NCBI GenBank assembly: GCA_963713855.1
Contig: OY970209.1
Span: 1,457,902 to 1,521,901, forward strand
Direction: 5' to 3'
Source: an uncultured bacterium
GTDB lineage: Bacteria > Babelota > Babeliae > Babelales > Babelaceae
Length of the DNA: 64,000 bases
Shown here: one piece after another, positions 11,987-39,057 of the stretch
Layout of the letters: the number at the start of each line of letters is the position of its first letter
How positions within the stretch are numbered: the first letter of the stretch is position 1
Position numbers and translations under genes: made by a program
Notes under the pieces: model-generated
Seen by the model: only the letters and a program-made list of their open reading frames with translations
What the model was told of the DNA's origin: nothing
Databases searched by the model: none

Positions 11987-12260
11987 GATAGGTTTTACCA
12001 GACTATTCGAGATCAGACCATTGGCGTTAATATCCAGCTCGAGCAACTCCAAGAGGACCAAGATAATTATTACGTTACAGCAAAATGCCTTCTGGGTTTA
12101 GCTAATCGAGCATTTGAACTTTTTACAAGTTCTGAAATTGAAGAAAAGCGACAGGTTATGAAACTTGTACTATCGAACGTCGAGATGGCCGGAAAAGCGC
12201 TCTACGACGTTCAACCGCCATTTGATATGATCCTAAAATGTTCGGATCGTCAACTATGGC
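11987..12260 (+). pseudogene. 3' remnant of the serine recombinase gene (paralog of ~38707-38986)
   Basis: Direct DNA similarity, e.g. GCAAAATGCCTTCTGGGTTT, CAGGTTATGAAACTTGTACTATCGAACGTC, TCCTAAAATGTTCGGATCGTCAACTATGGC. Confidence 0.9.
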
Positions 12261-12290
12261 GTACCTAAGAGACTTATTCAGGAACAGAGA
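12231..12290 (+). repeat. att repeat R1 (attP-like: integrase-end left arm + core + P' arm; one core G missing)
   Basis: CGTCAACTA-TGGCG-TACCTAAGAGACTTATTCAGGAACAGAGA. Confidence 0.85.
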
Positions 12291-12376
12291 AACAAACTAG
12301 ACACATTTTCACGTGCTTTAAGAATAGCTACGTGAAACACTAACCAAAAATACCTGCTCTTTCAAAGCTTATGCTG

Positions 12377-12658
12377 CTACTTCATTTCTCTGAACATTTT
12401 TAAATGCTTATTTTCGTCATTCATAAACACTTTCAGTTGACTCATATTGTAGCCATATCGCTCAAAAAGACCTCGAAGCTCAAGCAAGTCTAGCTTGGGT
12501 ATATTTTTTGATACGACATACACGTATACCTCTTTCCCAATTCCCTTACATCCTATTACAGATTTAATCTTTTTAAGCCACTCAAACATTGCATCTTCAT
12601 CATATTGAGGAGAATAAAAGGTGAGCGGAGTTAATATAAGAGTAACTTGATCATTCAT
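12377..12658 (-). CDS. Probable immunity protein of the upstream polymorphic toxin
   Basis: Starts 8 bp after the reconstructed toxin stop; small acidic/aromatic protein. Confidence 0.6.
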   Translation of the reverse strand: MNDQVTLILTPLTFYSPQYDEDAMFEWLKKIKSVIGCKGIGKEVYVYVVSKNIPKLDLLELRGLFERYGYNMSQLKVFMNDENKHLKMFREMK

Positions 12659-12665
12659 AATTTTT

Positions 12666-13549
12666 CTATTTAGTAGGAGGTCTAGTTTTTCCGCCGGGAT
12701 AGATATTATTTACACGATCTCCATCGGGATTTACAATATCCAATGTGGACCGGCATGACCATAAGGACCGCTTGGTACCCAATAGTTGCCATCTTTATCT
12801 GGCCAACCATGCTGATCAGTTTCGGGATGAGGCTGCTTTTTCCCATCAGAATTTTTGGGAGGAATATATCCATCTTTTTCACCAGGCTTATCAGGAATGG
12901 AAAGGTCATAAAGACGGTTGAACTCTTCCTAATTTGCAGTTCTTCCTGATGCACCAAACAACTTTTTAAAAGCTCCATTTACAAAGAATTTTGAAGCTAT
13001 TCCACCTAAAGTAGCGAGAACTCCCATTCCTACGGCATTCCAGCCAACAAAAGCTAAACCTTGGCCTGCTCCCCATGCAAAAAGCGGTATTATATTATGC
13101 ACTAATATATCTTCTCTTGATACACAGAAATTATGATACTCCTCTACGGTAAGATCATAAGCAATATCATGAGTAACTATTTCTAAGATATGACCAACTT
13201 TAACGAACTCTAAGCAATTTTTTAAAAGTGAATGGCCTACTTTGAGCTCTTCTGCTTTTACCCACTTTCCTTCTAAAGGGAGATAAAATATGTGATCATC
13301 TGCTACAACTATTTCCTCGCCATTAACAACAACGCGAAAAAAACGTGAAGCTCCTTTATGTTCTATATGCGTAACACTTCTCTCAATACAAGAGCCCTTA
13401 AAATCAAAACAAATGACTTTATCACCTTCTTTAAGCTCTTCTATTGGTATGTAGCCATTTGAGACTTTAACTAAAGTTCCACTTAAAAACCCTTCTCCTC
13501 GAGCAACGTTTATCGCCAAGAAACATATAAGTATTAAGATTCTTTTCAT
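12666..13549 (-). pseudogene. Signal peptide-Hint-Ntox37-like polymorphic toxin, disrupted
   Basis: Hint (GFLSGTLV...YDLTVEEYHNF...LVHN). Reading through TAG 12929-12931 gives PDKPGEKDGYIPPKN...GWPDKDGNYWVPSG..HAGPHW, then a frameshift near 12740 to DIVNPDG..NIYPGGKTR. Confidence 0.75.
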
Positions 13550-13762
13550 GCTTTTTCTCTTTAGATATTTCTAACGTACAATCAAATCTGCTTCAGTGTA
13601 GAATGAACTTTAATAAAGTCAACGGTGTGTTTGCTTGCAAGACAGTTGCTGTTAACAAGAAAGAAAACATAAATCAGGGCTGCGGTTAGAAAATGATGAG
13701 CTTAAAATTATTGAGGTTTTTAAAGCGGCTTAAAAACCTCTACCAAGACAGTATAGATAATA

Positions 13763-13810
13763 CCAGCCTTTAAGTGCTGGCGGCACCTAAGCGACGCATT
13801 CGGAAATAGA
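13763..13810 (+). repeat. att repeat R2 (hairpin left arm)
   Basis: CCAGC-ctttaagt-GCTGGCGG-CACCTAAGCGACGCATTCGGAAATAGA. Confidence 0.9.
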
Positions 13811-13862
13811 GAGATTAAACCAAACTTACTTTTTAAAATAGGAGATCTCTTTAATTTCTTAC

Positions 13863-14927
13863 TCAATAAGTAATGGCAATAGTTTTGTCTTTACAATTTA
13901 TATGCACCAGCCCACCATTAGGAACAACTATTTGCGGGTCTGTATGACCAAAATTCAGATTAAAAACAACAGGAAGATTAGCGTTGTAATCCTGCAAAGC
14001 TTGCTGAATTGCTTCTCTCTGATTTGTTACATAGTGCCCTCTACCTTCAGGCGGCAACATATGCATAAACTGCGTCTTTGGTAACCCAACTAAGATAGCT
14101 TTCAATCGCCTAAGTATGTTACGCTCAGCAAGTGCCGCAACAAAGCGATAAATAAATCCAGAACTTGGCAACTCTTCTGATGTCTCAATATATAAGACAA
14201 TATCATCATGCTTTTCAAATTGGGGAAGATAATAGGGACTATTTACAGCAAGCTGTAAGTCCAAAACTTCTAAACAGCCTCCCCATAACCTACCCGATAG
14301 TACGCTATCATCACAATTATACCATTCCCAATTCGGAGTCCTTTCCATAGGACGCTTAATGAAAAGTTTACTTGTGTCACTCCAATCAAAATCATAATCA
14401 GTATATTCCGCGGGCTTATTTATATAACCAACTTCAGTATCAAACAAAGCCTTTTTTATAGAATTAATAGTGTAATCATGCATAGCACCTTGCATACCAA
14501 ATTGCGACATAAGTGCACCGCCATAGTAAGAAATTAAGCCAAGATTCCATAATAAAACATGTATATTGGTTATATCACTATACCCTAGAAATATCTTAGG
14601 GTGAGCTAAAATAATTTTGCGATCTAAATAAGGCAAAATTCGAATACAATCACTTCCACCAGTTGTAGCAATTATTGCTTTAATTGAAGCATCTTCAAAA
14701 GCTGTATTGATGTCATCAGCACGTGCTTCTGGATTACGCGACAAATATTCTGGGCTTTTACGAGTAGTAGGCAATTCTATGGGAATAAGATTGAAAATAG
14801 TCTGCAAACGCCGAATACCAAGTTCGTAGACTTGGGGAAATAAGTAAGCACATGCTGCTGATGGAGATACAATAGCGACTTTGTCACCAGGTTGTAAACG
14901 TGATGGTATAATAAAAGAGGCACTCAT
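13863..14927 (-). CDS. S66 peptidase (LD-carboxypeptidase / MccF-like)
   Basis: LQPGDKVAIVSPS, GYSDIT, GRLWGGCLE, ETSEE, FGHTDPQ catalytic motifs. Confidence 0.9.
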   Translation of the reverse strand: MSASFIIPSRLQPGDKVAIVSPSAACAYLFPQVYELGIRRLQTIFNLIPIELPTTRKSPEYLSRNPEARADDINTAFEDASIKAIIATTGGSDCIRILPYLDRKIILAHPKIFLGYSDITNIHVLLWNLGLISYYGGALMSQFGMQGAMHDYTINSIKKALFDTEVGYINKPAEYTDYDFDWSDTSKLFIKRPMERTPNWEWYNCDDSVLSGRLWGGCLEVLDLQLAVNSPYYLPQFEKHDDIVLYIETSEELPSSGFIYRFVAALAERNILRRLKAILVGLPKTQFMHMLPPEGRGHYVTNQREAIQQALQDYNANLPVVFNLNFGHTDPQIVVPNGGLVHINCKDKTIAITY

Positions 14928-14929
14928 AG

Positions 14930-15433
14930 TTACAACTTTCTATTTCTTACCTTTCTCTTAAGCTTACCACGTTCTTTTTCTATAATTTTCTGATCTTGGG
15001 CATACCAAAGCATTTCTTCGGTATTTTTAAGTTTGCGCAAAAGCAATATGTTATGACCCCAAGCGAATCTAAAGACAGGAAGATTTTCAAAAAGTGGCAC
15101 AGCTTGTGCTACTTTTTCGTAAGCTAAGAAAAAAGCCTTCATTCTAAATATATTACTTCTTGAAAACCCTTCTATTCCAGGAAAAGCATTTTGTAAATCT
15201 TTGACAAGACGCTCAATGATCTGAGACCCCCAATGGCTAATCTCTTGTTTCTCTGTTATTGTTTTGCCTAAAGAGTAATGGAGTTTGATTAACTCTTTGT
15301 TTCCCCAAACAGCTGCTTTAATCTGAGACTCATAGATTTGTCTCTTCAGCGCTAATAGTATCTTAGTATAATCTTTAGCTAGAGCGAGAGTCGGCTTAGA
15401 TGTAGTTTCGCTTTTTTTCTTTATGCTTTTCAT
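14930..15433 (-). pseudogene. DUF1016/YhcG N-terminal domain, truncated (nuclease domain missing)
   Basis: WGSQIIERLVKDLQNAFP..GFSRSNIFRM..F...WGHN...WY motifs; ends abruptly. Confidence 0.7.
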
Positions 15434-15550
15434 TGAGTTCTCTCTACATAGTTCTTTAGCAAAAGCGATTTTGCTGGTAATTTTATCTTTTAATAATAAA
15501 CAAAAAACTTCCTAGAAAGGTGATAACCGCTTTTGAATGGTCTTATCGTA

Positions 15551-15893
15551 ATAGATCTTGCAATTACCGTCAAACCTGGATATACCCACTTTTGATCTAA
15601 TAATCACTTCTTAATGAAGGATAAGCCAACGACCGTACTACTAACATATAGCGCGTATGAGCGTCGAGGAAGTACGTTCAAATTTGGCTCGCATAACTTC
15701 AAAGATGCAGATGCTTCAGCATCAGCGTCGAGCTCCTTCAAGCAGTAAGCTCATTCCTAGCCTAATGGTCCGAATGTCAGCTTCCATTTTAAGCGTCAAA
15801 GCTTACACGAAGCTTTTTCAATACTTTAAGCAAATTACACAACACACGATCAGCATAACTCATATGGCAAGGGCCATGAGGAAAACTATGTTT
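15551..15893. repeat. Conserved non-coding backbone segment, copy A
   Basis: Collinear with 33941-34258; identical 26-mer ATCTAATAATCACTTCTTAATGAAGG. Confidence 0.85.
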
Positions 15894-15900
15894 TTGATTT

Positions 15901-16031
15901 ATTTTTGAGTTCTGACGTAGAAGAGAAGCGTCATATTATTAAACTTGAGAGTGGAAGCTGAGTATGTCCTCTATGACGTTCAACCGCCATTCGATGTGAT
16001 CCTAAAATGTTCGGATCGTCAACTATGGCGG
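15901..16031 (+). pseudogene. Second 3' remnant of the serine recombinase gene
   Basis: GAGTTCTGACGTAGAAGAGAAGCG...CTCTATGACGTTCAACCGCCATTCGATGTGATCCTAAAATGTTCGGATCGTCAACTATGGCGG matches 38848-38986 with an internal deletion. Confidence 0.9.
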
Positions 16032-16060
16032 TACCTAAGCAACGCATTCAGGAATCGAGA
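16000..16060 (+). repeat. att repeat R3 (complete attP-like junction)
   Basis: CGTCAACTA-TGGCGG-TACCTAAGCAACGCATTCAGGAATCGAGA; translates in frame as KCSDRQLWRYLSNAFRNRE. Confidence 0.9.
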
Positions 16061-16177
16061 AGCAAGCTTAAGGCAGTTACCAGCCTCTTTAAAAACTCTT
16101 GATACATTTTGCAGACAAAATGTCCTTTAAAAGCTTAATCTATTGACTTTTTTTCCAATTTATTGGACAATTGCTCT

Positions 16178-16498
16178 ATGAGAGTAGTACTTAAAAAAGT
16201 TTACAAGCTTTATAAAACTCCTGAATATGGTGCTTGGCTTGAACAACAGACTTTTAAGTCCCAAGTACAGATTGCTGATCGCCTCTCTAAAATAGAATTA
16301 GAGGGACATTTCGGTAATCATAAATTTCTTGAAAATAATATTTGGGAGTTAAAGTGGGAAAATGGCAGAAGAATTTACTATGCCTATATTAGCTCTTTAG
16401 ATATTTTAGTTTTACTTGGGGGAAATAAGAATGGGCAGAACAAAGACATTACACAAGCAAAAAGAATCTACAGAAAAAATGTTGAAACAGAAGATTAA
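16178..16498 (+). CDS. RelE/ParE (HigB-type) toxin
   Basis: QIADRLSKIE.GHFGNHK...IWELKW.NGRRIYY...LLGGNKNGQ.KDI. Confidence 0.85.
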   Translation: MRVVLKKVYKLYKTPEYGAWLEQQTFKSQVQIADRLSKIELEGHFGNHKFLENNIWELKWENGRRIYYAYISSLDILVLLGGNKNGQNKDITQAKRIYRKNVETED

Positions 16499-16775
16499 AA
16501 AAAGTGCTCAATTAAAACCTTACAATCCAACTGAAGATCTTTTAGATGAGAATTTTATTGGTAAAGCAATTTTAGAGTGTTTAAAAAATAATGATCCTGA
16601 GGGTGTAATGGAAGTGCTTTCGGTATATTTAAAAACAGTTAATAAGGTTAAATCTGCCCAACAAGCAAATATTGCACGTTCAACACTTTATCATAGCATC
16701 AAAAGCAAAAATCCTACCATCAAGACATTGGCTAAGCTTGTTTCAATTCATTCATTAGAGTTTCGCACAAAGTAA
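16479..16775 (+). CDS. HTH antitoxin (addiction module antidote)
   Basis: Overlaps the toxin; ANIARSTLYHS...NPTIKTL. Confidence 0.8.
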   Translation: MLKQKIKKSAQLKPYNPTEDLLDENFIGKAILECLKNNDPEGVMEVLSVYLKTVNKVKSAQQANIARSTLYHSIKSKNPTIKTLAKLVSIHSLEFRTK

Positions 16776-17124
16776 GCTGTTGGCAAGAAATTCTGTTAAT
16801 CGTCTTATAAAGAATGGAAAGTGCACAAATTTTGAGTATATCGAGATAGCGGGGCAAATGTACTTAAGGTGCTTTGGATCGGGAGCATAGAGGTAATGAA
16901 ATTATAGGCTAAGAGAAAGTTAGCACTGGGTATCTAAGCTCAAATAGAAGTTGAAGCTTATCGAGAGCCTTATCATTCGTCTTGCCGGTCGCATTCAGTG
17001 TAGCATATTGATTACCACGAATATGAAATGCTCCCTTACGATCTCTCTAAACCCTGAATCCTTTATTAGCAAGACTAGCACGAAATCTTGTATGATCAAG
17101 CATCGTTTGCTCCCCCTCAAAAGA

Positions 17125-17172
17125 CCAGCTGTAAAAAGCTGGCGTTACCTAAGCGATGCATTCAGGAATAAA
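17125..17172 (+). repeat. att repeat R4 (hairpin left arm)
   Basis: CCAGCT-gtaaaa-AGCTGGCGT-TACCTAAGCGATGCATTCAGGAATAAA. Confidence 0.9.
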
Positions 17173-17257
17173 GAAGTTAGACTAGATTTACGCTATCATG
17201 CTATTCACGTCTCGTTATATAGATTTGTTAAATAACTAATATTTTGAAGCAAAGCGA

Positions 17258-18499
17258 TTAAGCAAGCCGTTTCATGTTCCACACAGCATACGCTTTTTCA
17301 ATTTGTTGGCGAATTTGTGATGGTGGAATAAAAAGATAAGCATAGTTTTTTACCACTTCACCAGACTGACAAATGCCTTTTTGTTCCCATGCGTTGATAA
17401 GAGTTGCAATGTTAAATTCATGTGCAATGAGAAAGCCTATTATATAAAGGGCTCTCTCAACATGCGACGGATGTCGATCGGATAAACCTATTGTAATAAT
17501 ACTTGGCTTTTCGTCTTCTTCTTCAGAAAGAAGTATGGTTATAAAGTTTAGTATGGCACTCATTTCTCCTAACTTTAAAAGTTGTCTCAATGCGAAAAGG
17601 TCAGCTCGTTGCTCAGTTGTTCGCTCATATAACGACAGAAGCTTGTTCTTTTCGCCTTCGGGCGGGATCCAAAGGAAACCGTAACGCTTAAGCACTCTTT
17701 GAGCTTCTGGCTCGGCTAATGCTTCCACTAATATTTTTCCGATCTTTGTATGACCGAAAGAAGGGAGTGTATGTATGCCAAGCTCTAGATAATCTTTAAT
17801 ATCTTTTTGGTCGGATTTTACTAAAGGCTCGTTTAGGAAGCCCTGCATATCAACATCTCGAGTATCTCCGTGAACAATATGTCCGATCTCATGATAGAGG
17901 GTATACAGTCGAGAATCCAAATCAGGTGTTTTACACATGATTATATAGCTCTTCAAAGGTTTAGTGACTGCTTCACCAGCAAAGGATTTGGTTGTACTAA
18001 GGGCCCTTACTTCTTCTTGAAGACCCGCCAAACGTACGCCTTCGTCAACCAGTTTTTTCTGCATCGCTGTTGGTATTTCAACACCTTTTTCTTTAATAAG
18101 CAAATCAAGCTCAACTTCAGTTATTACTTCCTTTAGCCATGTTCTATCTATCCCATATATTGAAGAAGCTGGTACTAGTCCAAGAAGCTCTCTTAAAAAA
18201 TTGTAAGGATATAATAATATGTTCGGCCTCACACTAAGGTTAGGCTGAACAAGTCCATAATTAGCTCGATAAGCAACATTTTCTAGCCAATCAAAAAACG
18301 TCAAGTCAGATTTGTCCAACTCTTTTAACAGCTCTTGTTTCCAACTCTTGTAATCTTTTCCTTCCACAGTGGGTTTTTCATTATAAACAAAGCTTCCTTT
18401 GTCAAAATCCATTACAAGGGTTATTCCACGAGGTGTTTTGCCATAACTGACTACAGTGAAGGCAAAAGATAAAATAATCGCTTGCATGATTTTTTTCAC
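17258..18499 (-). CDS. Secreted zinc metallopeptidase (M48-like) with one YNxLR repeat
   Basis: Signal peptide; YHEIGH, EQRADLFA, HPSHVERA. Confidence 0.7.
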   Translation of the reverse strand: MKKIMQAIILSFAFTVVSYGKTPRGITLVMDFDKGSFVYNEKPTVEGKDYKSWKQELLKELDKSDLTFFDWLENVAYRANYGLVQPNLSVRPNILLYPYNFLRELLGLVPASSIYGIDRTWLKEVITEVELDLLIKEKGVEIPTAMQKKLVDEGVRLAGLQEEVRALSTTKSFAGEAVTKPLKSYIIMCKTPDLDSRLYTLYHEIGHIVHGDTRDVDMQGFLNEPLVKSDQKDIKDYLELGIHTLPSFGHTKIGKILVEALAEPEAQRVLKRYGFLWIPPEGEKNKLLSLYERTTEQRADLFALRQLLKLGEMSAILNFITILLSEEEDEKPSIITIGLSDRHPSHVERALYIIGFLIAHEFNIATLINAWEQKGICQSGEVVKNYAYLFIPPSQIRQQIEKAYAVWNMKRLA

Positions 18500-19075
18500 A
18501 AAGAGCTCTCAAGAGGCATGATATTCATTAAATTTTTTTACTACCTATATATTTAATATTAGTTTTATTAATGCCAAAAAGTCAATGGTGTATTTTTATA
18601 GCAAAACTTATCTCGTCAAATAGCCAATGAAAAGATCTTGAGGCTATAGGTAAAAAACTTTCTCGAAAGTCAATACCATTTTGCTTGACAGTATTGCTTA
18701 TAAACGGGATTATTGAATTATATTTTACCAAATTTTTCTAGATTTATGACCTAATCAACTCTATATCTGATCAGGGTAGCTAGACTGATGCGATAAACAT
18801 AAAATAGCTGTGATAGGCGTTTCTCTTCTTCTCCATGCTAGATAATGGAGAAGCTCGGTTGGTATATATTCCAAGTTTGAAAGGCTCAGATAGAGGTGAT
18901 TATTCGTTGCTACCTAAGTTGCTTCATCTTTATGGGGCGCCCGAAATCCCTCTGTTGCGATTTAGCAAAGAACTCTTTACTATAGGCGGGATTTTTCGGA
19001 AGAACAAAGATTAGCGATTATTAAGGCATTATTTCGCTGGCCCAGCGTAAATCGAAATAATGCAGGAGCTGCAAT

Positions 19076-19130
19076 CCAACTACTTTTTAAAGAGCTGGCG
19101 GTACCTAATTGACGCCTTCAGGAATAGGCA
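19076..19130 (+). repeat. att repeat R5
   Basis: CCAAC...GAGCTGGCGG-TACCTAATTGACGCCTTCAGGAATAGGCA. Confidence 0.9.
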
Positions 19131-19222
19131 AGTAAGGCTTTTGTATATTTAAGCTGACTTTTAGTTTTACTAAAGAGAAACTTTGCTAAAGCATACTATT
19201 ATGCTCTTTCTACAGTAAATTA

Positions 19223-19252
19223 TTGACATGCTATACTACACAGTGGTATGGT
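19223..19252 (+). promoter_or_regulatory. Promoter with antitoxin-operator-like palindrome
   Basis: TTGACA at 19223; imperfect inverted repeat ATACTAC-aca-GTGGTAT (19233-19249) directly before the TA operon. Confidence 0.5.
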
Positions 19253-19260
19253 ATAAGCAC

Positions 19261-19600
19261 GTGCTTAGAAATATTACCAACAACCTATTTCAGCAAAATG
19301 AAAGACAATCTTCTAAAAAAGAGACAACTCTTTTAAGAAGATTATGATGTATTTCTTGAAGAATTAGCCAAAAACCCAGATTCAGGTGATGTGATTTCTG
19401 GCACAGGTGGTGTTCGAAAGATACGATTAAAATCAGCATCCAAAAGAAACGTGGTGGGTTTAGAGTTTGCTACTTTTACTTTCAGGCAAAGGAACGAATA
19501 TACCTGTTTTATATCTTTGGAAAAAATGAGCAAGAAAAGATAACAGAAGAAGAGAAGAAAATTCTTAGGGACTTAGCAAGCTATTTTGAGAGGGGTTCAG
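19261..19600 (+). pseudogene. HigB-2/RelE-like toxin, disrupted
   Basis: ELAKNPDSGDVISGTGGVRKIR...KRGGFRVCYF...KNEQEKIT, with an in-frame TAA near 19334 and a frameshift near 19445. Confidence 0.8.
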
Positions 19601-19603
19601 AGC

Positions 19604-19921
19604 GTGAGTAAATTATTCAAAGCTTTAAAAGCAGGCTTCGAAGAAGCTATTGCACACGATCAAGGAAAGTTACAGCTTCGCTCAGAATGCATAGAGATTC
19701 CAGAACCACCTGCTCAATATAAAGCTAAAGAAATAAAGAAAATAAGAGAAAAAAATAAATATTCCCAAGCTATTTTTGCAAAGGTTCTTAACGTAAGTGT
19801 TAAAACCGTACAATCATGGGAATCGGGACAACGTGTCCCGAGCCAATCAGCATTACGCCTTCTTGAAATCGTAGAAAAAGGAATTTATAATCCTCAAATT
19901 TATAGAAAATCAATTAGTTAG
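19604..19921 (+). CDS. HigA-2-like HTH antitoxin
   Basis: IKKIREK..SQAIFAKVLNVSVKTVQSWESGQRVPS; GTG start 19604. Confidence 0.85.
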   Translation: MSKLFKALKAGFEEAIAHDQGKLQLRSECIEIPEPPAQYKAKEIKKIREKNKYSQAIFAKVLNVSVKTVQSWESGQRVPSQSALRLLEIVEKGIYNPQIYRKSIS

Positions 19922-20005
19922 ATGACGAATTACTGCCACAGAACAGTTGATTTATCCTAATCTCTTTCTTTACTTATTCTTTAAAGAGCTATTAAAAGCA
20001 TTGTT

Positions 20006-20060
20006 TGCCAGCTTTATTAAGCATTGGCGGCACCTAAGCGACGCATTCAGTAAAAGAGAA
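20006..20060 (+). repeat. att repeat R6
   Basis: TGCCAGCTTTATTAAGCAT-TGGCGG-CACCTAAGCGACGCATTCAGTAAAAGAGAA. Confidence 0.9.
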
Positions 20061-20198
20061 ATAAGAATAATCTCTGTAAGACCCAATAAACTCAAATAAA
20101 GCCTCTTTTTTACGTTAAAGAACAAATGGTTGACTTTGACTTAGCTTATTTTAGAATAAGCACAAAGTTGATTATGTATTAAAAGTGTATCAAAACTT

Positions 20199-21119
20199 AT
20201 GAAAAATCTTCTAGCTTTTATTTATTTTTTAGCAGCAGCCTGCGCTCATGGAGAAGGCTTCTTAGCAGGAACTTTAGTTAAAACTCCAAATGGCTACACT
20301 CCTATAGAAAAACTGCAAGAGAAAGATTTAGTAATTTGCTATGACTTTCAGGGAAACTGTGTCACAAGAAGGATAACAAAGACTTTTAAGCAATCTACCT
20401 CTGATTATATCCGCTTGTGGATTAACGATGAGTTAATTGAAGTTGCTTCTGATCACAAATTTTTTCTACCTCTTGAAAATCGCTGGATCGAAGCGAAATG
20501 CGCTAACTCTAAGCATGTTTTTTTGAGTAGATGTATCGATTTAGTTCTAATTACTGCTGCTCAATATCTGACAAAACAAGCAGAAGTTTACGACATTACG
20601 GTAGAAGAGTTTCATAACTTTTGTGTTTCCAATCAAGATGTTCATGTGCACAATATATCACCTGTAGTAGCAATTGGTATCTCTTGGGCCTTTGAAGGAC
20701 CTATTGTCTGGACAGCTTCTATCGGACTTGCCGGCTTAGGATGGGGAATTGGATACTTGCTTTCAAGTAATCGTCATGCGAGACCGCAAACTCACTTTAA
20801 TGCCGACGAATTTGGACAAAGATTTAACAACAAAAAGCATCACGAAGAAAGCTATCACACAACAGCAGCTAGTGGAGGATCTTCTGATGACTTTGATGAT
20901 GAAGATCCTTATAAAGAAGAACAACACAAAAGCAAGCAAATGAAAAAGCTTTCCGAAGGAGAAATTAAAAAATTGGAAGCTGCTGGAATTGATGTGCACA
21001 CGCTTAAGCCAAATTCAAAATTTGATCTTTTCAAGAATCAGGCCGGTGAAATTTTCGTAAAACCCAAAGCAGGCAATGGTCCTGGCGACTCAACAGGCTT
21101 TAACATCAATAATTTTTAA
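20199..21119 (+). CDS. Signal peptide-Hint-Ntox33-like polymorphic toxin (intact)
   Basis: GFLAGTLV...VYDITVEEFHNF...VHVHN Hint domain; C-terminal KKLSEGEIKKL..GIDVH.LK...DLFK...GEIFVKPK.GNGPGD.TG. Confidence 0.8.
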   Translation: MKNLLAFIYFLAAACAHGEGFLAGTLVKTPNGYTPIEKLQEKDLVICYDFQGNCVTRRITKTFKQSTSDYIRLWINDELIEVASDHKFFLPLENRWIEAKCANSKHVFLSRCIDLVLITAAQYLTKQAEVYDITVEEFHNFCVSNQDVHVHNISPVVAIGISWAFEGPIVWTASIGLAGLGWGIGYLLSSNRHARPQTHFNADEFGQRFNNKKHHEESYHTTAASGGSSDDFDDEDPYKEEQHKSKQMKKLSEGEIKKLEAAGIDVHTLKPNSKFDLFKNQAGEIFVKPKAGNGPGDSTGFNINNF

Positions 21120-21122
21120 GCT

Positions 21123-21521
21123 ATGAAATACGAATACAAAACCCTTGTCCGTCTTAAAATTTTGAGCACGACTCTTAGCCCCGAACAAATCACCTATGAA
21201 TTAGGAGTTGCTTGTGAACAATCTTGGAAGATTGGTGATAATCGAGCATCGAGTATTATTAAAGAAACAACCAATGGGTGGGTTCTTGGTTCAGGGTTTT
21301 CTCAATCAACACCCCTGGAAGAACAACTTGAGCCTTTCCTTAACCGTTTAACTACCTATTCTGCTAAAATTCGTCGATTATCTGTACACAATATTGTTGA
21401 GCTTTCTTGCATTGTCTACGCTGTGGCCCCTCCTGCTCTCTATTTTAATAAGAACGTTATCTCATCCATTGCTAAACTCGGGGCAAATTTTGACATCGAT
21501 TTGTACATTTTAGCAAAATAG
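21123..21521 (+). CDS. DUF4279-like cognate immunity protein
   Basis: 3 bp after the toxin; LSPEQIT.ELG...W..GD...LGANFDIDLY. Confidence 0.7.
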   Translation: MKYEYKTLVRLKILSTTLSPEQITYELGVACEQSWKIGDNRASSIIKETTNGWVLGSGFSQSTPLEEQLEPFLNRLTTYSAKIRRLSVHNIVELSCIVYAVAPPALYFNKNVISSIAKLGANFDIDLYILAK

Positions 21522-21584
21522 TATTCATCTTATCCGGGCTCTACTTCACTCCAAAACTCCGTAGAACAAGTTTAAGAAAAAGAA

Positions 21585-21902: not shown

Positions 21903-22049
21903 ATTTCTTACCCCTCATAATATGGTTGAATAAATAGCAAAATAGCCTTACCGCGTAGTTTACTTGGACGCAAGTTTCTATAAATTGCTAATCCAAAAGC
22001 AGAGATGGAAAGTGTCTTAATAAAAATTATTTAACTTTTGACTGAAAGA

Positions 22050-22110
22050 TGCCAGCTGAAAGCCTTTCGAAAGCTGGCGGTACCTAAGCGACGCATTCAG
22101 GAATAGGGAA
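22050..22110 (+). repeat. att repeat R7 (closest to consensus)
   Basis: TGCCAGCT-gaaagcctttcgaa-AGCTGGCGG-TACCTAAGCGACGCATTCAGGAATAGGGAA. Confidence 0.95.
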
Positions 22111-22258
22111 ATTAAGTTTCATCTACAATATATTCAAAATTAACTTTTACCCTTCTAAAAGTTCTAAGCCGTTTAAGATCTTCTTTGCTTCATCCATTGA
22201 GGATAGATCATATATAGGATATATTAATAGTATAAGTGTTATATAAAGGAATAATCCT

Positions 22259-22865: not shown

Positions 22866-22894
22866 GAAAGGCTTTTTTAAGGCATAAGCTTCCA

Positions 22895-22950
22895 TGCCAG
22901 CTGCTTTAACGAAAGCTGGCGGTACTTAAGCGACGCATTCAGGAGCAAAG
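22895..22950 (+). repeat. att repeat R8
   Basis: TGCCAGCT-gctttaacgaa-AGCTGGCGG-TACTTAAGCGACGCATTCAGGAGCAAAG. Confidence 0.95.
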
Positions 22951-23065
22951 AAATTAGACTTAGGTTAAGTTTGAGCGATATAAAAGGGCTTTATTGCAAG
23001 CTGCGACGTTATGAACATCTATTCTTAGAAAGCAGAAAACTAGTTTGACCATCAATAATAATACA

Positions 23066-24894: not shown

Positions 24895-24900
24895 TCTATC

Positions 24901-28455: not shown

Positions 28456-28488
28456 TTGAAGTAATTCAGGAGTAATAGGATAATTTTT

Positions 28489-29887: not shown

Positions 29888-29978
29888 AACTGTTGCTTAT
29901 GTGCGCAAATACATAAACTTCATTTAATGACGCAATGCCTTAATAGGATAATATTGCATAATCAGGCTCGCTAAATGA

Positions 29979-30030
29979 TGCCAGTTCATTAAGGTGGTGG
30001 CGGTACCTAGTTGACGCATTCAGGAATGAA
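29979..30030 (+). repeat. att repeat R9
   Basis: TGCCAG...TGGCGG-TACCTAGTTGACGCATTCAGGAATGAA. Confidence 0.9.
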
Positions 30031-30107
30031 AAAGTACGCTTACCTATTTTTCATAAACACAACACAATAGGCAAAAATATTTTATTTAGCATAGTTTCTA
30101 AACAAAC

Positions 30108-32384: not shown

Positions 32385-32530
32385 TTTTTATCTCCATAAA
32401 GAATTACATTCTTTATTATACCATCAAAAATAAAAACCTGGAATCAAGAATTAGCAAAGCTTTTGTCAATCTATACACTGGAGTTTCATACACAATAATT
32501 TGAACTCGTAATTTAAGGATAAATCCTAAT

Positions 32531-32575
32531 ACAGCTTGATCTTAAGAACTGGCAGTACAAGGCGACGCTATTCAG
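32531..32575 (+). repeat. att repeat R10 (degenerate)
   Basis: ACAGCT...CTGGCAG-TACAAGGCGACGCTATTCAG. Confidence 0.6.
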
Positions 32576-32801
32576 TTTTCTTTAGCGCTTTGAGATTTAT
32601 GTAATCATGTATTAATGTTTCAGTTAATTTCTGCTTTTTATATAAGCAATATTCAAGGCTATCTGCAATTGTTGACAATATATTACTTAGGCATCCAAGC
32701 TCGCTTTCTATGCTTGCTTCACGATAATATAAGTATATCCCATGACGATTTTTGATTATTTCTACAGGTTCGTTCATTAACTTGCTCCTCTTATTTAGCA
32801 A

Positions 32802-32853
32802 TGCCAGCCTTTTAAGCGCTAGCGGCATCTGGTTGACGCATTCAGGAACAGAG
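32802..32853 (+). repeat. att repeat R11, left end of the tRNA-proximal element
   Basis: TGCCAGC-cttttaagc-GCTAGCGG-CATCTGGTTGACGCATTCAGGAACAGAG. Confidence 0.85.
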
Positions 32854-32932
32854 TGATTGAGCCAGAATTACAAAAGGCACCATTTCTCATACATTAGATT
32901 GCTGATGCTCAACTTAAATTTAAGACTTAATA

Positions 32933-33736
32933 TCATAACTCCAACACAGTGGGCACGTCGATCTCTTTAAAGATTATAAAAATACGCTCAAAGCCTTTTT
33001 TTATATGACTATCAATAGCTCTAAGTCTTTTAATTGCCTCTCTATAACTAGACCTGTCAAAGCCTGTTCCACTAGTTATTATTAACCACATAGCTATTGT
33101 GGTATCGTTTACAATAGATCGCAGTTCCTTTGTGCGCTTTAATTCCTTCTTTTCAATCAAGCTCCTTAAATGTTCTGGATCTTCTGGTCCATTTTTAACT
33201 TGTATACGATTAATAAAAAATACTCTGTGCTGGCTAATCCCAGATAAGCTATAATACGGGAACTTAAAAATAAAAGTTTCGTTATACGTTAAAAATCGTG
33301 CTGAATCAATTGCTATTTCATTTATAAAACTCGAAAAGTCCTCCCTAGAAAGATATAATCTCCCGGCTTGAAAACATTTCTTTAAGTAATTCGATAATTT
33401 GTGGGCAAGAAAGTGGCCTCCTCTCCTTCCGATAATAAACTTACTAACGTTTATAAGCAGAGTATATTCATTAGGAACCCAAGCGGAAATCAACTGATTC
33501 AGCTGTTTAATTCGCTTTATATCATTATTGTCGTCTTCTCTCAACTGATTGTGTGAAATCTCAAGATAAACCTGTTTATTATCAATCATCGCAGAGAAAT
33601 CTGGAAATGTTTTAATTCCATTAGGCTCATACTTTTCCTCCTCTATAAGACTCCCTTCTTTATGATGCAAGTGGTTTTTAATGATTTCAAAAGCTTCAAA
33701 TTCTTTTACTTTCGCTTGCGTAAACATTTTCGACAT
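32933..33736 (-). CDS. Hypothetical protein, possible PD-(D/E)xK fold
   Basis: FPDF...VYLEIS motif; weak. Confidence 0.45.
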   Translation of the reverse strand: MSKMFTQAKVKEFEAFEIIKNHLHHKEGSLIEEEKYEPNGIKTFPDFSAMIDNKQVYLEISHNQLREDDNNDIKRIKQLNQLISAWVPNEYTLLINVSKFIIGRRGGHFLAHKLSNYLKKCFQAGRLYLSREDFSSFINEIAIDSARFLTYNETFIFKFPYYSLSGISQHRVFFINRIQVKNGPEDPEHLRSLIEKKELKRTKELRSIVNDTTIAMWLIITSGTGFDRSSYREAIKRLRAIDSHIKKGFERIFIIFKEIDVPTVLEL

Positions 33737-33940
33737 CCTGTATTTTTATGTGCGCTCTAAAAATTACTTTCAATTTCGTAAAAAAGCATTATGGAATTTA
33801 GAAGCTTTCTTACTTAAGTATCAATCTATTTAAGAGTCTTTACTAAAACATGGCATATTTAATCTATGTAAAAGCTCTTAATTGTCCAACTAGCTGTTGG
33901 ACTTTTCATACACAAGATGATAGATAGAAATAAAACGTTA

Positions 33941-34258
33941 ATAAATCTTGCAATCACCATCAAGCATCCATATACTCATCTTTATCTAATAATCACTTCT
34001 TAATGAAGGGTAATCCAATGACTGTACTACTAAAATATAGCGCATATAAGCGTTTAGAAAGTACATTCACACTTGGCTTATATAACCCGCAAGATAGACT
34101 TTGCTTGTTCGAACTACAAGCTTATTCGCATCAACCCGAATGTTAGCTTTCTCTTTAACCGCCAAAGCTTATATAAAACTTTTTTAATACTTAAATAAAG
34201 TCAATAGATGATCAGCACATATCTCTTGTAGTTAAGAGTCGTGAGGAAGACTATGTTT
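33941..34258. repeat. Conserved non-coding backbone segment, copy B
   Basis: Collinear with 15551-15893. Confidence 0.85.
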
Positions 34259-34519
34259 AAAAGAGATCCTCCGGCTAGGCCAAAGGCAATTTTGACCATT
34301 GATCAGCGTAATAAATTTGCACATTTCTTTATCTTGCTTATGACTATTGATAAGCAATTACAAAAGAAAAGCAAATCAAAAGAAATAAAGAAATCAAAAA
34401 TCAAACTAAATGACGAGACAAGCTTCACCACTAGGCGAACCTTGTTTTTCTTACTAGCTTATTTATCTTTAAGTAGTCAAAGAGCTCCCCAACCCTGCAC
34501 TTGTGAGAGAATGCTTTAA
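34253..34519 (+). CDS. Small hypothetical element protein
   Basis: GAGGA RBS and ATG at 34253, both conserved in copy A (ATG 15888). Confidence 0.45.
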   Translation: MFKRDPPARPKAILTIDQRNKFAHFFILLMTIDKQLQKKSKSKEIKKSKIKLNDETSFTTRRTLFFLLAYLSLSSQRAPQPCTCERML

Positions 34520-34741
34520 AGAGTGCATTGTATTTGAAACGAAGCTAAGAAACATCTGACGAATGGACACCATCTTTCACTTTCTATGCTATCGATGAAA
34601 ACTGCCACCAGTAATGGCAGAATTAGAAAGTAGCCTAAGCATCGCATTACCTAACCTAATTACGCAGCAGTTGCTGCGCAATTGATTAAGATTTATCCTT
34701 AGCTGAATGATTCGCAAAGAGAGGAATCGATAAAGTAATTT

Positions 34742-35859
34742 ATGATAGATACTGTCGTTTTAATACTGAGCCAAGATATGTATCATATCAGTGAGCCTGA
34801 TAAGTTTGTACCATCTGCTCGATGGATTGGCAATCCATCGCCAGCTCTTCATGGTATTTGCTCTAAGCAAAACCCCACTAAAAAAGAGCTGTTAAGTCGC
34901 ATATATAAGCCACGCCTTCTCTTTCATATCACTATAACAAGGAAAGCAAACAAGAAATAACACTTAAAATTGAGCTTTCATTACCCAAACTAGTTTTTGG
35001 CAATAACTTCAATGAGCTCATGCGTAAAGACTTTACCTCAATACTACAAAAGCTAGTTTATGTGCTCAAAGAAATGGGAGTCATAGTAACCGAAGAAGTG
35101 CTCACGAAGGCGCCTGTTTCCGCTATTCATTATTCTAAGAATATTCCCTTAACTGACGGTTCTTTACCTTACCATTTCATTAACAAAGCCAAAGAAGCCA
35201 ATCTTAAGTTGTCACTAGATACTAATCAAACAGATTATAGCGATGGTCATAGCTATAAATGGCATTGTAATTCCTATGAAGTTGTCTTTTACGACAAGAT
35301 CAAAGACCTTGAAATGGCTAAAAAGAGTAGTAAGCGTGCATTAGAAAAGGACAGTGATGTACAGCTCAATCTTTTCGAAGCTTTGCGTAAAAGAAAGAAG
35401 TTTGAAGTTTTACGCATAGAAGTTCGGCTTAATAAGCGCCAGAAAATGAAGCAGCTTTTTAAAGATCTTGAGATTATATCAAACCTCACTTTGAAGAGTT
35501 TGTTCAAGCCGGCTATCTCCAAAAAAGTTTTATTACATTACCTTGATGAGTTAGAAAGGAAAAGGCCGGCTTTGCTTGATTATAGAACATCAAGTGATCA
35601 AGCACTCTTAGCTGCTTTAGTTATTAATAACTCCAAGCTGAATCCGAAAGCTGTCCTTCAAATGTTCGGCCTAAAAAAAGCTTTAGAAACAGTTACAGCT
35701 CGTGAGCTGAGAATTATCTTTGCTAAACATCATTCAAGAAGCTGGAATCGCCTTATAGCTGACGTTCAGAAGCTAAAGCTCCCTATAGCACAACGTTCTT
35801 TGACAGTTCTAAGGGATTTGATCAAAACTAAGCCCTTAAGATTACCAATCTTGCGTTAA
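34742..35859 (+). pseudogene. Phage/plasmid replication initiator (gene II/X-like), one frameshift near 34918
   Basis: MIDTV...; joined frame gives ELSLPKLVFGNNF; later IHYSKNI, FYDK and LRIEVRL motifs. Confidence 0.6.
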
Positions 35860-35879
35860 TGTAACTTTTATATTACACT
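35851..35879 (+). promoter_or_regulatory. TA promoter/operator (probably leaderless)
   Basis: TTGCGT-17nt-TACACT, 6 nt before the ATG; TGTAA...TTACA inverted repeat between the boxes. Confidence 0.45.
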
Positions 35880-35885
35880 TATAGC

Positions 35886-36215
35886 ATGAGCTTGATAAAA
35901 ATTATTATTTACTCTACAAACACAGGCAAAGAGCCTTATTCCGAGTGGGAAGATGGACTTGATAAGATGGCAGTAGCTATCGTTAAAAACAGATTAGACC
36001 GGATTCGCCTTGGTAATTTTGGTGATGCTAAAATGATCAAGGAAGGAGAGGGAATTTGGGAACTGCGCATCGATTTTGGTCCAGGCTATAGGATTTATTT
36101 TGGAAAGAAGGGAAAAAAAATCATTATCTTATTAGTGGGTGGTGAAAAAAGGAGTCAAAGCCGCGATATTGAAAAAGCAAAGCGGTATTGGCTTGACTGC
36201 GAGGGGTTATTATGA
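35886..36215 (+). CDS. RelE/ParE (HigB-type) toxin
   Basis: RLDRIRLGNFGDAK...GIWELRIDFGPGYRIYF...GGEKRSQSRDI. Confidence 0.9.
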   Translation: MSLIKIIIYSTNTGKEPYSEWEDGLDKMAVAIVKNRLDRIRLGNFGDAKMIKEGEGIWELRIDFGPGYRIYFGKKGKKIIILLVGGEKRSQSRDIEKAKRYWLDCEGLL

Positions 36216-36514
36216 AAAGAAGATTTAGGGATTATCAAGAAAAACTTTACGAAGACTTAAAAGACTCAGAATTAGCTAGCGCCTATCTTAACGTAGCGCT
36301 TATGGACGAAGATCCACGCATCTTTTTACTTGCATTAAAGAATGTTTATGAGGCTCAAGGTGGAGAAATGGCTGATCTTGCTCGAAAGACAAAATTAAGT
36401 CGCGAAAATCTTTATCGCATTCTTTCGGAAAAAGGCAATCCCAAGCTCACGAGTATCGTATCTTTGCTTAATGCTGTAGGATTCTCTCTTGCCGTGCAAC
36501 CTCGTAAGAAATAA
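36212..36514 (+). CDS. Addiction-module antidote HTH antitoxin
   Basis: ATGA overlap with the toxin; LARKTKLSRENLYRILSEKGNP. Confidence 0.9.
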   Translation: MKRRFRDYQEKLYEDLKDSELASAYLNVALMDEDPRIFLLALKNVYEAQGGEMADLARKTKLSRENLYRILSEKGNPKLTSIVSLLNAVGFSLAVQPRKK

Positions 36515-36564
36515 CCTTTGTAAGATAAACCATAAGCGTCAAAAAACAGATTTTAGTTTTTAAA

Positions 36565-36936
36565 TTATTTACAGAATAAGTTATCAAGATAGTTGTTAAC
36601 CTCTTTCAACCCACTTACTAAGGATGAAGGCAAAAGCTTTTTAGCAGCTTCTCGGCTCATGCCAGCTTTACTTATTCCTTCAAAATGTAAATGTTCTAGG
36701 TAGGACACATAGAAAGCATTTTTCAATTCTGGGTCGGCAATTCTAAAGAAACGATCAGCTATTTTGAAGTATTTTTTTAATAACTCAAAATTGCTCGAAT
36801 CAATTGCTTTTTGTGTAGCGTTAGCAAAGCGAGACATTTCGAGATGGCATAATCCAGCAATTGTTTTATCTTGGAGCTCATGTTGTAATTCAGGGAATTC
36901 ATGAGATAGCAATTCGAAAAAATCTCTACAAGTCAT
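36565..36936 (-). CDS. Hypothetical protein (immunity-like)
   Basis: EFPEL...LKNAFYVSYLEHL. Confidence 0.5.
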   Translation of the reverse strand: MTCRDFFELLSHEFPELQHELQDKTIAGLCHLEMSRFANATQKAIDSSNFELLKKYFKIADRFFRIADPELKNAFYVSYLEHLHFEGISKAGMSREAAKKLLPSSLVSGLKEVNNYLDNLFCK

Positions 36937-37004
36937 CTTTTATACCTTTTCATAGTAGGCAGTCTTAAGTTCATTTTATTGCTTGATGAATTTTAACACA
37001 AAAG

Positions 37005-37438
37005 TTCAAGATGGCTTAGAAAGCCCAAGGTCGTTTATAATTGAAAGAAGGATGGGATTATTAAGTTCATGGTAGCAATATGCTTCAAAGTATTCTTTAA
37101 TAAGTGTTATTTCTTGAGGATCCCATGCCAGCCATTCAGCCTTGATAAAGAGCAACTTTAAGACAACAAAGAAGAGTTATTCTTGAAGCGAAGCCATTCT
37201 GGGATGCTAACTCAAGCACACGAGGCAAAAGTCGAGCTAAATTAGATTTTGATCCAGATGTGGTCATCCCATCTTTCAGGAAAACTGAAACATCCCAATA
37301 ATTAAGCGATTTTAGATCTAGAGCATTCAGATTATCTAGCGTATCCTGGTCAATGCAGCATGGACAGACATTTTCGATAAGAATTTGTGGATAGATACTA
37401 AAAATCAGATAAGCTTTTTCAAAATCAAAATACAGCAT
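37005..37438 (-). pseudogene. Hypothetical protein, frameshifted
   Basis: LLPRVLEL; continues in another frame as KAEWLAWDPQEITLIKEYF. Confidence 0.45.
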
Positions 37439-37534
37439 GATTTTTGGTCTTTGGCGTTTATTGACATTAAGATTTAAGATGTAGCGCTTTACTTGAAAAT
37501 ATCAAGCTCAAAACAGAAATAAAAGAGACTAAAT

Positions 37535-38992
37535 ATGAAAGCCATACTTATCGCTCGCGTGAGCACAGAAGAACAAAAAGAAGCAGGTAATTCTTTACCA
37601 GCTCAAATTTCACGCCTTAAAAGCTATTGTGAAAGTAGAGATTTTGAGGTTATACGTACTTGTAGCTTTGATGAAAGTGCTTACTCTAATGACCGTTCTG
37701 AGTTTGACCGTATTATTGATTTTATCTTAAAGCAAAAAGAAAGGGTTGCTGTCTGCGCTGATAAAGTTGATAGGCTTTCGCGTAATGTCTTTGATAAACG
37801 CATCTCTGTTTTATATGAAAAAGCACTGAGCGATGAAATAGAACTGCATTTTGTATCGGATGGTCAGGTTATTAATAGCCGTATATCAGCCGTTGAGAAG
37901 TTTCAGTTTAGTATTAGCTTAGGCCTTGCCAAGTATTATTCTGATGCCATAAGCGATAACGTTAAAGCGTGCCCACGAACAAAAGCTACGTAAAGGTGAA
38001 TGGCTTGCTAAAGCGCCTTATGGTTATAGAAATGTAAAGAATGCGAATGGCAATACTGACATTATCATTGACGATTATGCTTCTCAAATCGTTAAAAAGA
38101 CGTTTGAATTGTATGCGACTGGCTCTTATTCAATGGAATTGCTCTGTAAAAAGCTTAAGAATGATTATGGCCTTGAGTGGCCAAAAGGCTATTTAGGTAA
38201 ACTCCTTGATAATCCTTTTTACTACGGCGTTATGGTCATCAAAGGGAAGGAATATCCTCATCGATACCCAACTGTTATTACCCAAGCTCTTTTTGAGGAA
38301 GTACAGAGCATCAAAGAGGGATTTAAGAAACAGCCTTTTAAGTACGCAGGTAAGCCATACGTCTATCGAGGTCTTTTACGTTGTGGCCACTGCGGATTAG
38401 CCATAACACCGGAAAAGCATAAAGGATTCGTATATTACCATTGCACGCAGTATAAAGGTAAGCACGGAGCAAAATGGCTTCGGGAAGAGGAAATCACGCG
38501 CCAATTAGTAAAGTTTTTAGGAATCTTCAAATACCAGAGTACATCCTAACAGAAATTACTCATACGCTCGATACTCTTCATAAGGATAAAATAGATTTTC
38601 ATAACAAAGAGTTCGATAAGCTTACTACTGAACAGAAAACACTTACTAAGATGATTGATAATCTTTATATAGATAAACTCAAGGGGAGAATTACTGAGAG
38701 CGACTATGACAGATTTTACCAGTCTCTTAAAGATCAAAGCATTGATATTACTATTAGACTTGAGCAACTTCAAGAGGCTGAAGATAACTACTACCTTACA
38801 GCAAAATGCCTTCTGGGTTTGGCTAATCGAGCATTATGAATTTTTACGAGTTCTGAAGTTGAAGAAAAACGGCAGGTTATGAAACTTGTACTATCGAACG
38901 TCAGGATAGAAGCTGGAAAAGTGCTCTACGACGTTCAATCACCATTTGATTTCATCCTAAAATGTTCGGATCGTCAACTATGGCGGGGCTAA
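37535..38992 (+). pseudogene. Large serine recombinase (integrase), three apparent frameshifts (~37970, ~38510, ~38835)
   Basis: ARVSTEEQ catalytic Ser, DKVDRLSR, APYGY, NPFYYG, zinc ribbon CGHCG...YYHC, coiled coil; ends ...DRQLWRG* inside the tRNA. Confidence 0.9.
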
Positions 38993-39057
38993 CGAGACTC
39001 GAACTCGCGACCTTCCGCGTGACAGGCGGACGCTCTAACCAACTGAGCTATAGCCCC
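38981..39057 (-). tRNA. tRNA-Asp(GTC), integration target
   Basis: GGGGCTATAGCTCAG...GCCTGTCACGC...GTTCGAGTC...CCCCGCCA cloverleaf. Confidence 0.95.

What the first reader, a model, noticed from the sequence alone, without database searches (positions are those of the whole stretch)
12231..39057. Integron-like gene-cassette array apparently built by a large serine recombinase at the tRNA-Asp 3' end
Seen: eleven same-strand copies of (T)GGCGG-TACCTAAGCGACGCATTCAGGAA with cores starting at 12257, 13778, 16026, 17140, 19096, 20025, 22075, 22917, 29998, 32550 and 32820. A twelfth core at 38981 is the CCGCCA end of tRNA-Asp, next to a serine recombinase gene. The repeats fall between functional genes, and the intervals (0.27-7.1 kb) hold mostly self-contained modules, in order: Hint-toxin + immunity; S66 + DUF1016; HigBA; protease; HigBA-2; Hint-toxin + immunity; VapBC; TetR-ABC; protease; short ORF; Rep-TA-integrase. 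Established: integrons use a tyrosine IntI and attC sites, and tandem island accretion at tRNAs is known but usually involves a few large integrase-bearing islands. Inference: mostly integrase-free 1-2 gene cassettes were stacked one by one at the tRNA end, which acts like attI, with the newest unit next to the tRNA. This would be a serine-integrase analogue of a super-integron.
Basis: partly seen in the sequence, partly recalled or inferred. Interest (0 to 1): 0.95.

Follow-up and report, generated by a model that had tools for sequence, protein, structure and literature searches.

The report
Serine-recombinase cassette stack at tRNA-Asp
Behind a tRNA gene of an uncultured protist-infecting bacterium, small gene modules (mostly toxin-antitoxin and toxin genes) have piled up between leftover attachment sites of a serine-recombinase mobile element, and in related bacteria such modules swap neighbours at those sites: an integron-like result that seems to come from a known island-stacking process rather than a new machine.

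Summary
The repeat is real: 10 of the 11 claimed copies are the only significant hits in the 1.52-Mb genome, all on one strand; 32550 is not significant. Read in frame, it encodes the C-terminal tail (WR[YH]L[SIV]DAFRN...) of the adjacent large serine recombinase, whose gene integration at tRNA-Asp cuts short. Each copy is therefore an attP arm: eight are attR-type junctions, two attP-type with integrase remnants. The host is a Ca. Babeliales; its 6.2-kb integrase+Rep carrier is a true pseudogene. In a sister lineage, 0.5-1 kb one-operon units change neighbours at the core, supporting cassette behaviour. But two window units trace to eroded carriers, and no window unit was found intact elsewhere. 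Best reading: CIME-type accretion, the carrier picking up and dropping units by ordinary attL x attR and attP x attB chemistry. Stacks of this kind are published (Dehalococcoides ssrA islands, SCC), and this scan noted similar arrays before in other genomes, mostly Patescibacteria. New variant, not an integron.

The parts
38981..39057 (-). tRNA-Asp(GTC); its 3' end CCGCCA is the att core (attL; B arm = tRNA, P' arm = integrase 3' end)
37535..38992 (+). Large serine recombinase pseudogene (Resolvase + Recombinase + Zn ribbon; two frameshifts, one premature stop); frame ends ...SDRQLWRG* inside the tRNA
34742..35859 (+). Rolling-circle-type Rep (Phage_CRI-like by atlas lead on the G027 homologue), broken
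35886..36514 (+). RelE/HigB + HI1420 toxin-antitoxin pair of the carrier
32820..38986 (.). Carrier element, 6.2 kb, now dead
32790..32867 (+). Junction: hairpin arm + core (TAG variant) + integrase-tail arm; attR of the carrier
32540..32575 (+). Doubtful degenerate copy
   Evidence: nhmmer E 1.4; fails leave-one-out
29968..30045 (+). attR-type junction; unit to 32820 holds a 758-aa protein
22887..22964 (+). attR-type junction; 7.1-kb unit with HI1420 antitoxin (93% identical to the carrier's), TetR, ABC genes, PIN fragment
22045..22122 (+). attR-type junction; 842-bp unit with VapC (PIN) and a likely antitoxin
19995..20072 (+). attR-type junction; 2.05-kb unit with Hint-Ntox33 toxin + DUF4279
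19066..19143 (+). attR-type junction; 929-bp HigBA-2 unit, the P-end cargo of Rep-bearing elements in G255 and G252
17110..17187 (+). attR-type junction (core TGGCGT); 1.96-kb unit with an M48-like protease
15884..16073 (+). attP-type junction: last ~50 integrase codons + core 16026 + tail arm; 1.1-kb HigB/HI1420 unit follows
13748..13825 (+). attR-type junction; unit to 16026 is an internally deleted carrier (S66, DUF1016_N, backbone 15549-15893 = 33939-34258 at 71%)
11984..12303 (+). attP-type junction: 93-aa integrase 3' remnant + degenerate core 12256 + tail arm; 1.5-kb split Hint toxin unit follows
8460..10205 (.). Probable decayed distal part: M48 gene homologous to the tRNA-proximal unit of G001, tail remnant near 8466, weak site at 10160

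Best explanation
A family of 6-20 kb integrative elements (large serine recombinase + rolling-circle Rep + cargo) inserts at tRNA 3' ends in Babeliales. attP lies inside the integrase gene: integration leaves a protein ending WRG* at the tRNA (attL) and strands a 31-35 aa tail at the far end (attR) [shown in sequence]. The window is a stack of such ends. Units arise from carriers, either by internal deletion that keeps both arms (13778-16026) or by loss of everything from the tRNA side up to the cargo next to the P arm, leaving a new attB'-like arm [origin shown for two units; how the new arm forms is inferred: recombination with a secondary core, or a hairpin repeat at the tRNA end]. Integrase-free units then travel in cis: the carrier excises with attL x a distal attR, taking the proximal units; inserts at another cell's tRNA; and later excises alone, leaving the units in front of the resident stack [inferred; needs only canonical LSR chemistry]. 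The array behaves as a last-in-first-out cassette stack; addictive TA modules are preferentially kept [inferred]. In this genome the only LSR is dead, so the array is frozen until a new carrier arrives.
For: In-frame tail at all strong copies. 17 of 20 integrase loci have a tRNA right behind the gene. 81 of 120 homologues end at WRx*, and P0078 is a natural 516-aa form with the whole tail; its model (pLDDT 81.5) shows the tail as two helices on an LSR fold. P and P' arms share TA(G/A)(T/G)(T/C)GAC symmetrically about the central GG; cassette left arms lack it, so the junctions are attR-type. Of 21 tRNA-Asp loci printed, chosen for an integrase or tail hit, 11 have an integrase-free unit directly on the tRNA: the state expected after the carrier leaves. 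Sister-lineage units keep 60-91% identity inside and 47-51% outside the cores (background median 49-50) with different neighbours. Site DNA stays conserved (0.83-0.97 majority base, codons 3-10) while flanks are saturated (0.43-0.55), implying selection on sites of integrase-free units. Precedent: PMC5704250 and PMC3146451 passages.
Against: No excision, circle or transfer was observed. No window unit was found as an intact site-bounded unit elsewhere; 24 of the 29 best cargo-homologue loci have no site nearby. The shuffling evidence comes from another family of the order and rests on three units, mostly on short metagenome contigs. The stop-avoidance test on the tails was not significant. Order data cannot tell carrier-borne blocks from free cassette circles. 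How the element moves between cells is unknown; no viral contig carried the integrase or the site.
Confidence: 0.66

Rival explanations
1. True serine integron: integrase-free units excise singly by attR x attR recombination as circles and reinsert at the tRNA (attB or attL), the resident integrase acting in trans like IntI.
For: Very compact one-operon units in both lineages (G027: five consecutive TA operons of 0.7-0.85 kb; a class D beta-lactamase-like gene ending about 20 bp before a core in G171); neighbour changes at both cores; integrase-free units between the tRNA and an older integrase (G224, G241, G165, G001).
Against: attR x attR is not a canonical LSR reaction (own knowledge); all arrangements seen also follow from carrier pick-up and drop-off; no circle seen; left arms carry no recombinase motif beyond GCCA-G.
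Confidence: 0.2
2. Fossil pile: each unit is only the eroded end of its own autonomous element, fixed once formed; the repeat is a scar.
For: Every arm is a former integrase tail; integrase remnants in 3 window units and internally deleted integrases in G165, G224, G001, G051; HigBA-2 is carrier-end cargo in relatives; the window integrase is dead.
Against: The same unit has different neighbours in different genomes with breaks at the cores; the 30-bp arm is kept while the rest of the tail is saturated; repeated erosion to exactly one operon five times in a row (G027) is unlikely.
Confidence: 0.11
3. Units are shuffled by homologous recombination or slippage between the 30-bp repeats, after an LSR first laid the sites down.
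For: Sites within one array are near identical over 30 bp; G238 holds two paralogous units in tandem.
Against: Breaks map to the core rather than within the shared arm at the distal ends; 30 bp is short for RecA (own knowledge); it does not explain transfer between genomes.
Confidence: 0.03

Closest known systems
Dehalococcoides ssrA genomic islands with DsiB (PMC3146451, passages read)
   Same: Large serine recombinase whose 3' end overlaps attL/attP; tandem islands behind a stable RNA gene; many units without an integration module, suggested to be cis-mobilizable by accretion
   Different: Target is tRNA-Asp/Glu/Gln/Arg, not ssrA; no DsiA/ParB/Mom module, a Rep instead; units down to 0.5-1 kb with one operon; the split-off tail is conserved (31-35 aa), whereas DsiB C-termini were described as divergent
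CIME/ICE-IME accretion and cis mobilisation (PMC5704250, passages)
   Same: Decayed elements keep att sites; newcomers integrate at the gene-proximal site; composite excision and transfer
   Different: Serine enzyme with intragenic attP; 10 junctions; attR-type hybrid junctions with non-element arms; no conjugation genes seen
Staphylococcal SCC arrays in the oriC environ (PMC3780952, passages)
   Same: LSR-driven tandem cassettes bounded by direct repeats behind one gene
   Different: One recombinase, not CcrAB/C; tRNA target; much smaller units
Integrons / chromosomal super-integrons (recalled; TA cassettes in PMC13108822 seen as abstract only)
   Same: Array of small, TA-rich, reorderable units growing at one end
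   Different: No tyrosine IntI, no attC fold-back site, genes in both orientations, unit boundary is an integrase-tail arm
Archaeal suicidal (SSV-type) integrases (PMC8371274, passages)
   Same: att site within the integrase gene; integration splits it
   Different: Those are tyrosine recombinases split into two large halves; here a serine enzyme loses only its last ~31-35 aa

Membership tests
Large serine recombinase | Resolvase + Recombinase + zinc-ribbon domains, catalytic Ser, coiled coil | tested here: met
   Pfam; S10 nearly invariant in 88 sequences; fold matches serine integrase complexes, E 9e-20
Integron | Tyrosine integrase IntI beside attI | tested here: not met
   One PF00589 gene in the genome, at C1:409347, over 1 Mb away; the adjacent enzyme is an LSR
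Integron | attC: imperfect palindrome with R/L boxes, recombined as folded single strand | tested here: not met
   Repeat is an integrase-tail arm; only a small variable hairpin left of the core (-2 to -10 kcal/mol), not apparent in the sister lineage arms; no Rfam hit
Integron | Promoterless cassettes in one orientation | tested here: not met
   Genes lie on both strands in window and G027 units; promoters not scanned
Integron | Cassette content and order vary between strains at the sites | tested here: met
   Sister lineage; not shown for the window's own units
Integron | Single cassettes excise as circles | not testable with these tools
   No run was listed
CIME/accretion arrays | Integrase-free units with retained att sites in tandem with an integrase element at a gene 3' end | tested here: met
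CIME/accretion arrays | Composite excision and cis mobilisation | not testable with these tools
   Inferred from neighbour changes only
Dehalococcoides ssrA-GI | LSR 3' end overlaps attL | tested here: met
Dehalococcoides ssrA-GI | Target ssrA; six-gene DsiB/DsiA/ParB/Mom module | tested here: not met
   tRNA targets; carrier ORFs show none of these families
SCC elements | ccrAB or ccrC, target rlmH/orfX | tested here: not met
   Single LSR in the genome; tRNA target
IME | Own integrase plus Rep/relaxase or oriT, helper-dependent transfer | tested here: inconclusive
   Rep is Phage_CRI-like by atlas features 0.96 (family on 18-26% of cluster members) and phrog_702 E 0.004; oriT and helper not tested

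The most novel reading that the evidence does not exclude
A serine-recombinase integron: single integrase-free cassettes excise by attR x attR and reinsert at the tRNA, and the ~33-aa tail that is present on the circle and cut off on integration is a built-in directionality switch, with each cassette carrying its own tail variant that completes the integrase.
Probability: 0.2. Interest if true: 0.88.

Novelty: new variant of a known kind. Interest (0 to 1): 0.6.

Why it matters
It shows how ordinary island accretion can reach integron-like granularity (one operon per unit) with a serine enzyme, in a phylum of protist parasites whose mobile DNA is little studied. Such units are invisible to island finders that need an integrase and 2 kb (TIGER/Islander, PMC12424338 passage). 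A class D beta-lactamase-like gene sits as one unit in a relative, so the system can carry resistance-type genes in the environment. The family offers tRNA-targeting serine integrases with fully mapped att arms and a testable idea: a C-terminal tail gained and lost by recombination that may set direction.

Tried and rejected
Genome-wide or two-orientation repeat: rejected. Assembly error behind the broken integrase: rejected, 1 of 61 housekeeping loci frameshifted over 78 kb. attC or structured RNA: rejected. Repeat as a duplicated tRNA 3' end: rejected; only 6 bases are shared and the arm is integrase code. Cassette-specific P'-like left arm (satellites with a true attP): not supported, no motif. 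Long duplication of the host arm at both unit ends: seen in G004, G044, G154, weakly G190, not in the other 10 of 14 loci compared. Protein-level selection against stops in cassette tails: not significant (one of 19 sister-lineage sites dropped as too short, and G003 dropped from the 16 carrier sites by my placeholder). Window cassettes as intact units in 261 genomes: not found. Viral contigs: no integrase relative, no site. Sequencing runs: none was listed, so no read test. Single-sequence fold failed (pLDDT 39.5). PADLOC: only DUF1016 (PDC-S02) and a weak capP hit among 14 proteins. Place look-up of earlier findings gave nothing. Paper searches listed no description of this family or array (listings and abstract starts only; subscription journals largely missing; supplements not read).
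Full report
1. Observation. The window is the last 64 kb of a single-contig 1.52-Mb genome, GC 41.4%; the array is 32-39% GC. An ungapped profile from the 11 claimed copies ranks 10 of them first in the genome, all on + and all between 12256 and 32820. An nhmmer model from 8 copies gives 10 hits at E 0.002 or better, all in the array; 32550 scores E 1.4, like background. tRNA-Asp lies at 38981-39057 on minus with tRNA-Asn and tRNA-Val upstream. The module list is mostly right; the 270-bp 'short ORF' unit is doubtful.

2. What the repeat is. The integrase gene runs toward the tRNA and its frame ends ...SDRQLWRG* inside the tRNA antisense. In the same frame the strong repeats read WR[YH]L[SIV][DN]AF[RGS]... 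(32820 begins with a stop and 12256 is shifted by one base). Integrase matches occur in 17 of 41 genomes, this one included, the closest at 65-86% identity, and 17 of 20 loci have tRNA-Asp, -Glu, -Arg or -Gln directly behind. Of 120 listed homologues 81 end at WRx*, 2 match the tail pattern, 35 read on into tRNA antisense or variant tails, 2 lack the W; P0078 is a natural whole protein with the tail. Its alignment-based model has pLDDT 81.5, the tail forming two helices, and matches serine integrase structures. A source names one homologue Candidatus Babeliales, and record titles give Dependentiae/TM6; that these bacteria infect protists is recalled. So the repeat is the P arm of an attP that lies inside the integrase gene. 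Half-sites read from the central GG show the same motif on P and P' arms and none on the left arms of the other junctions: 12256 and 16026 are P'-core-P junctions behind integrase remnants, the other eight are attR-type. A degenerate tail pattern hits 57 of 261 genomes of the phylum against 8 genomes for the reversed control; this window has the longest array among them.

3. State of the locus. The 6.2-kb carrier (32820-38986) has a Phage_CRI-like Rep (a lead), a TA pair and the LSR. Both Rep and integrase are broken, while only 1 of 61 housekeeping loci compared shows a frameshift. It is the only LSR in the genome; the one tyrosine recombinase is far away. The array is frozen at present.

4. 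Are the units cassettes? For: in a sister lineage (family f4, genus g24, and metagenome contigs) arrays have 0.5-1 kb units. G027 has six sites enclosing five TA operons; L093 has four sites behind tRNA-Asp with no integrase. One unit is 91% identical between L093 and G027 with other neighbours on both sides; a second occurs in L093, L088 and L081 with three different distal neighbours; a third has a HigBA neighbour in G027 and a class D beta-lactamase-like neighbour in G171/L091. Identity is 60-91% inside and 47-51% outside the cores, background median 49-50%. Across array sites the first 30 bp are conserved (majority base 0.83-0.97) and the rest of the former tail is saturated (0.43-0.55), whereas the 15 carrier attR sites keep amino-acid similarity to codon 30. 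Eleven of 21 tRNA-Asp loci examined (a set chosen for hits) have an integrase-free unit on the tRNA. Against: unit 13778-16026 shares backbone with the carrier and ends in the last ~50 integrase codons; HigBA-2 sits about 220 bp behind the tail arm of Rep-bearing elements in G255 and, further in, G252; the 7.1-kb unit shares an antitoxin with the carrier at 93%; internally deleted integrases are common in relatives; and 24 of 29 best cargo homologue loci have no site nearby. The M48 gene next to the tRNA in the congener G001 lies at the decayed far end here, which fits reordering but lacks intact sites.

5. Mechanism. Shown: target, core, split gene, junction types, carrier origin of two units, neighbour changes at cores in a sister lineage. 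Inferred: the carrier excises with a distal attR, carries proximal units to a new tRNA site and later leaves alone, so the stack grows at the tRNA end by canonical chemistry (0.66). Free single-cassette circles (0.2) and a pure fossil pile (0.11) are the main rivals. How new left arms arise is open: many are, or resemble, a palindrome found at many tRNA 3' ends in this order.

6. Known relatives. Passages read: Dehalococcoides ssrA islands (PMC3146451: LSR overlapping attL, tandem islands, 15 without integration module, possibly CIMEs moved by accretion); CIME accretion (PMC5704250); SCC arrays (PMC3780952); archaeal suicidal integrases (PMC8371274); TIGER/Islander limits (PMC12424338); PMC12884075 added nothing specific. 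It works like an integron in layout and outcome but fails the IntI, attC and orientation tests. Searches listed no paper on this family in Babeliales or CPR. Earlier unchecked notes of this scan describe similar arrays and carriers in other genomes; I reached my reading and the Dehalococcoides paper before seeing them and do not count them as support.

7. Verdict. Real feature; new variant of a known kind; interest 0.6. The best evidence for cassette behaviour comes from relatives, not from this window.

Noticed in passing
G000:C1:351893-356169 (own genome, outside the window): Second tail site, 4.3 kb from tRNA-Glu, whole 32-aa tail, no integrase; a HigBA-2-like pair abuts the tRNA
   Followed up: partly
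window:39070-39100 and many relatives' tRNA 3' ends: Palindromic repeat (GGCCTGCCA...CGAAGCTTTAGCGAAG...TGG type) directly behind tRNA-Asn, -Val, -Lys, -Arg, -Asp, -Glu; also inserted inside tail arms in G162; looks like a mobile hairpin
   Followed up: partly
L045 (G004:C4:521231-523813), L052 (G123:C28:21750-21992): 80-aa ORFs that look like GIY-YIG nucleases (by eye, not scanned) next to those hairpin arms; candidate movers of the hairpin
   Followed up: no
L059:340-1298 / L091:332-1117 (G171): Single-gene unit with a class D beta-lactamase-like ORF (NCBIfam 268.7 bits, cut-off 280)
   Followed up: partly
window:13035-13622 vs G000:C1 about 1267100-1267700; window 19640-19909 vs about 1353700-1354000: Hint-toxin and HigA-2 paralogues elsewhere in the genome without sites
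   Followed up: no
L079 (G210:C34:5268 and 8758): Two identical tail sites in inverted orientation; possibly an assembly fold-back
   Followed up: no
P0016, P0025, P0041, P0042, P0053, P0090: Integrases with a second tail type (..L.TLR.F.W..), suggesting subfamilies of tails
   Followed up: no
window:11480-11851: 123-aa cysteine-rich ORF with an apparent signal peptide in the distal unit; weak Galaxin-repeat hit
   Followed up: no
window:32790-32867 vs G001:C2:56522: Both congeners have the same TAG-variant core and a similar arm before a dead Rep+integrase carrier, but G001 has further units between carrier and tRNA
   Followed up: partly
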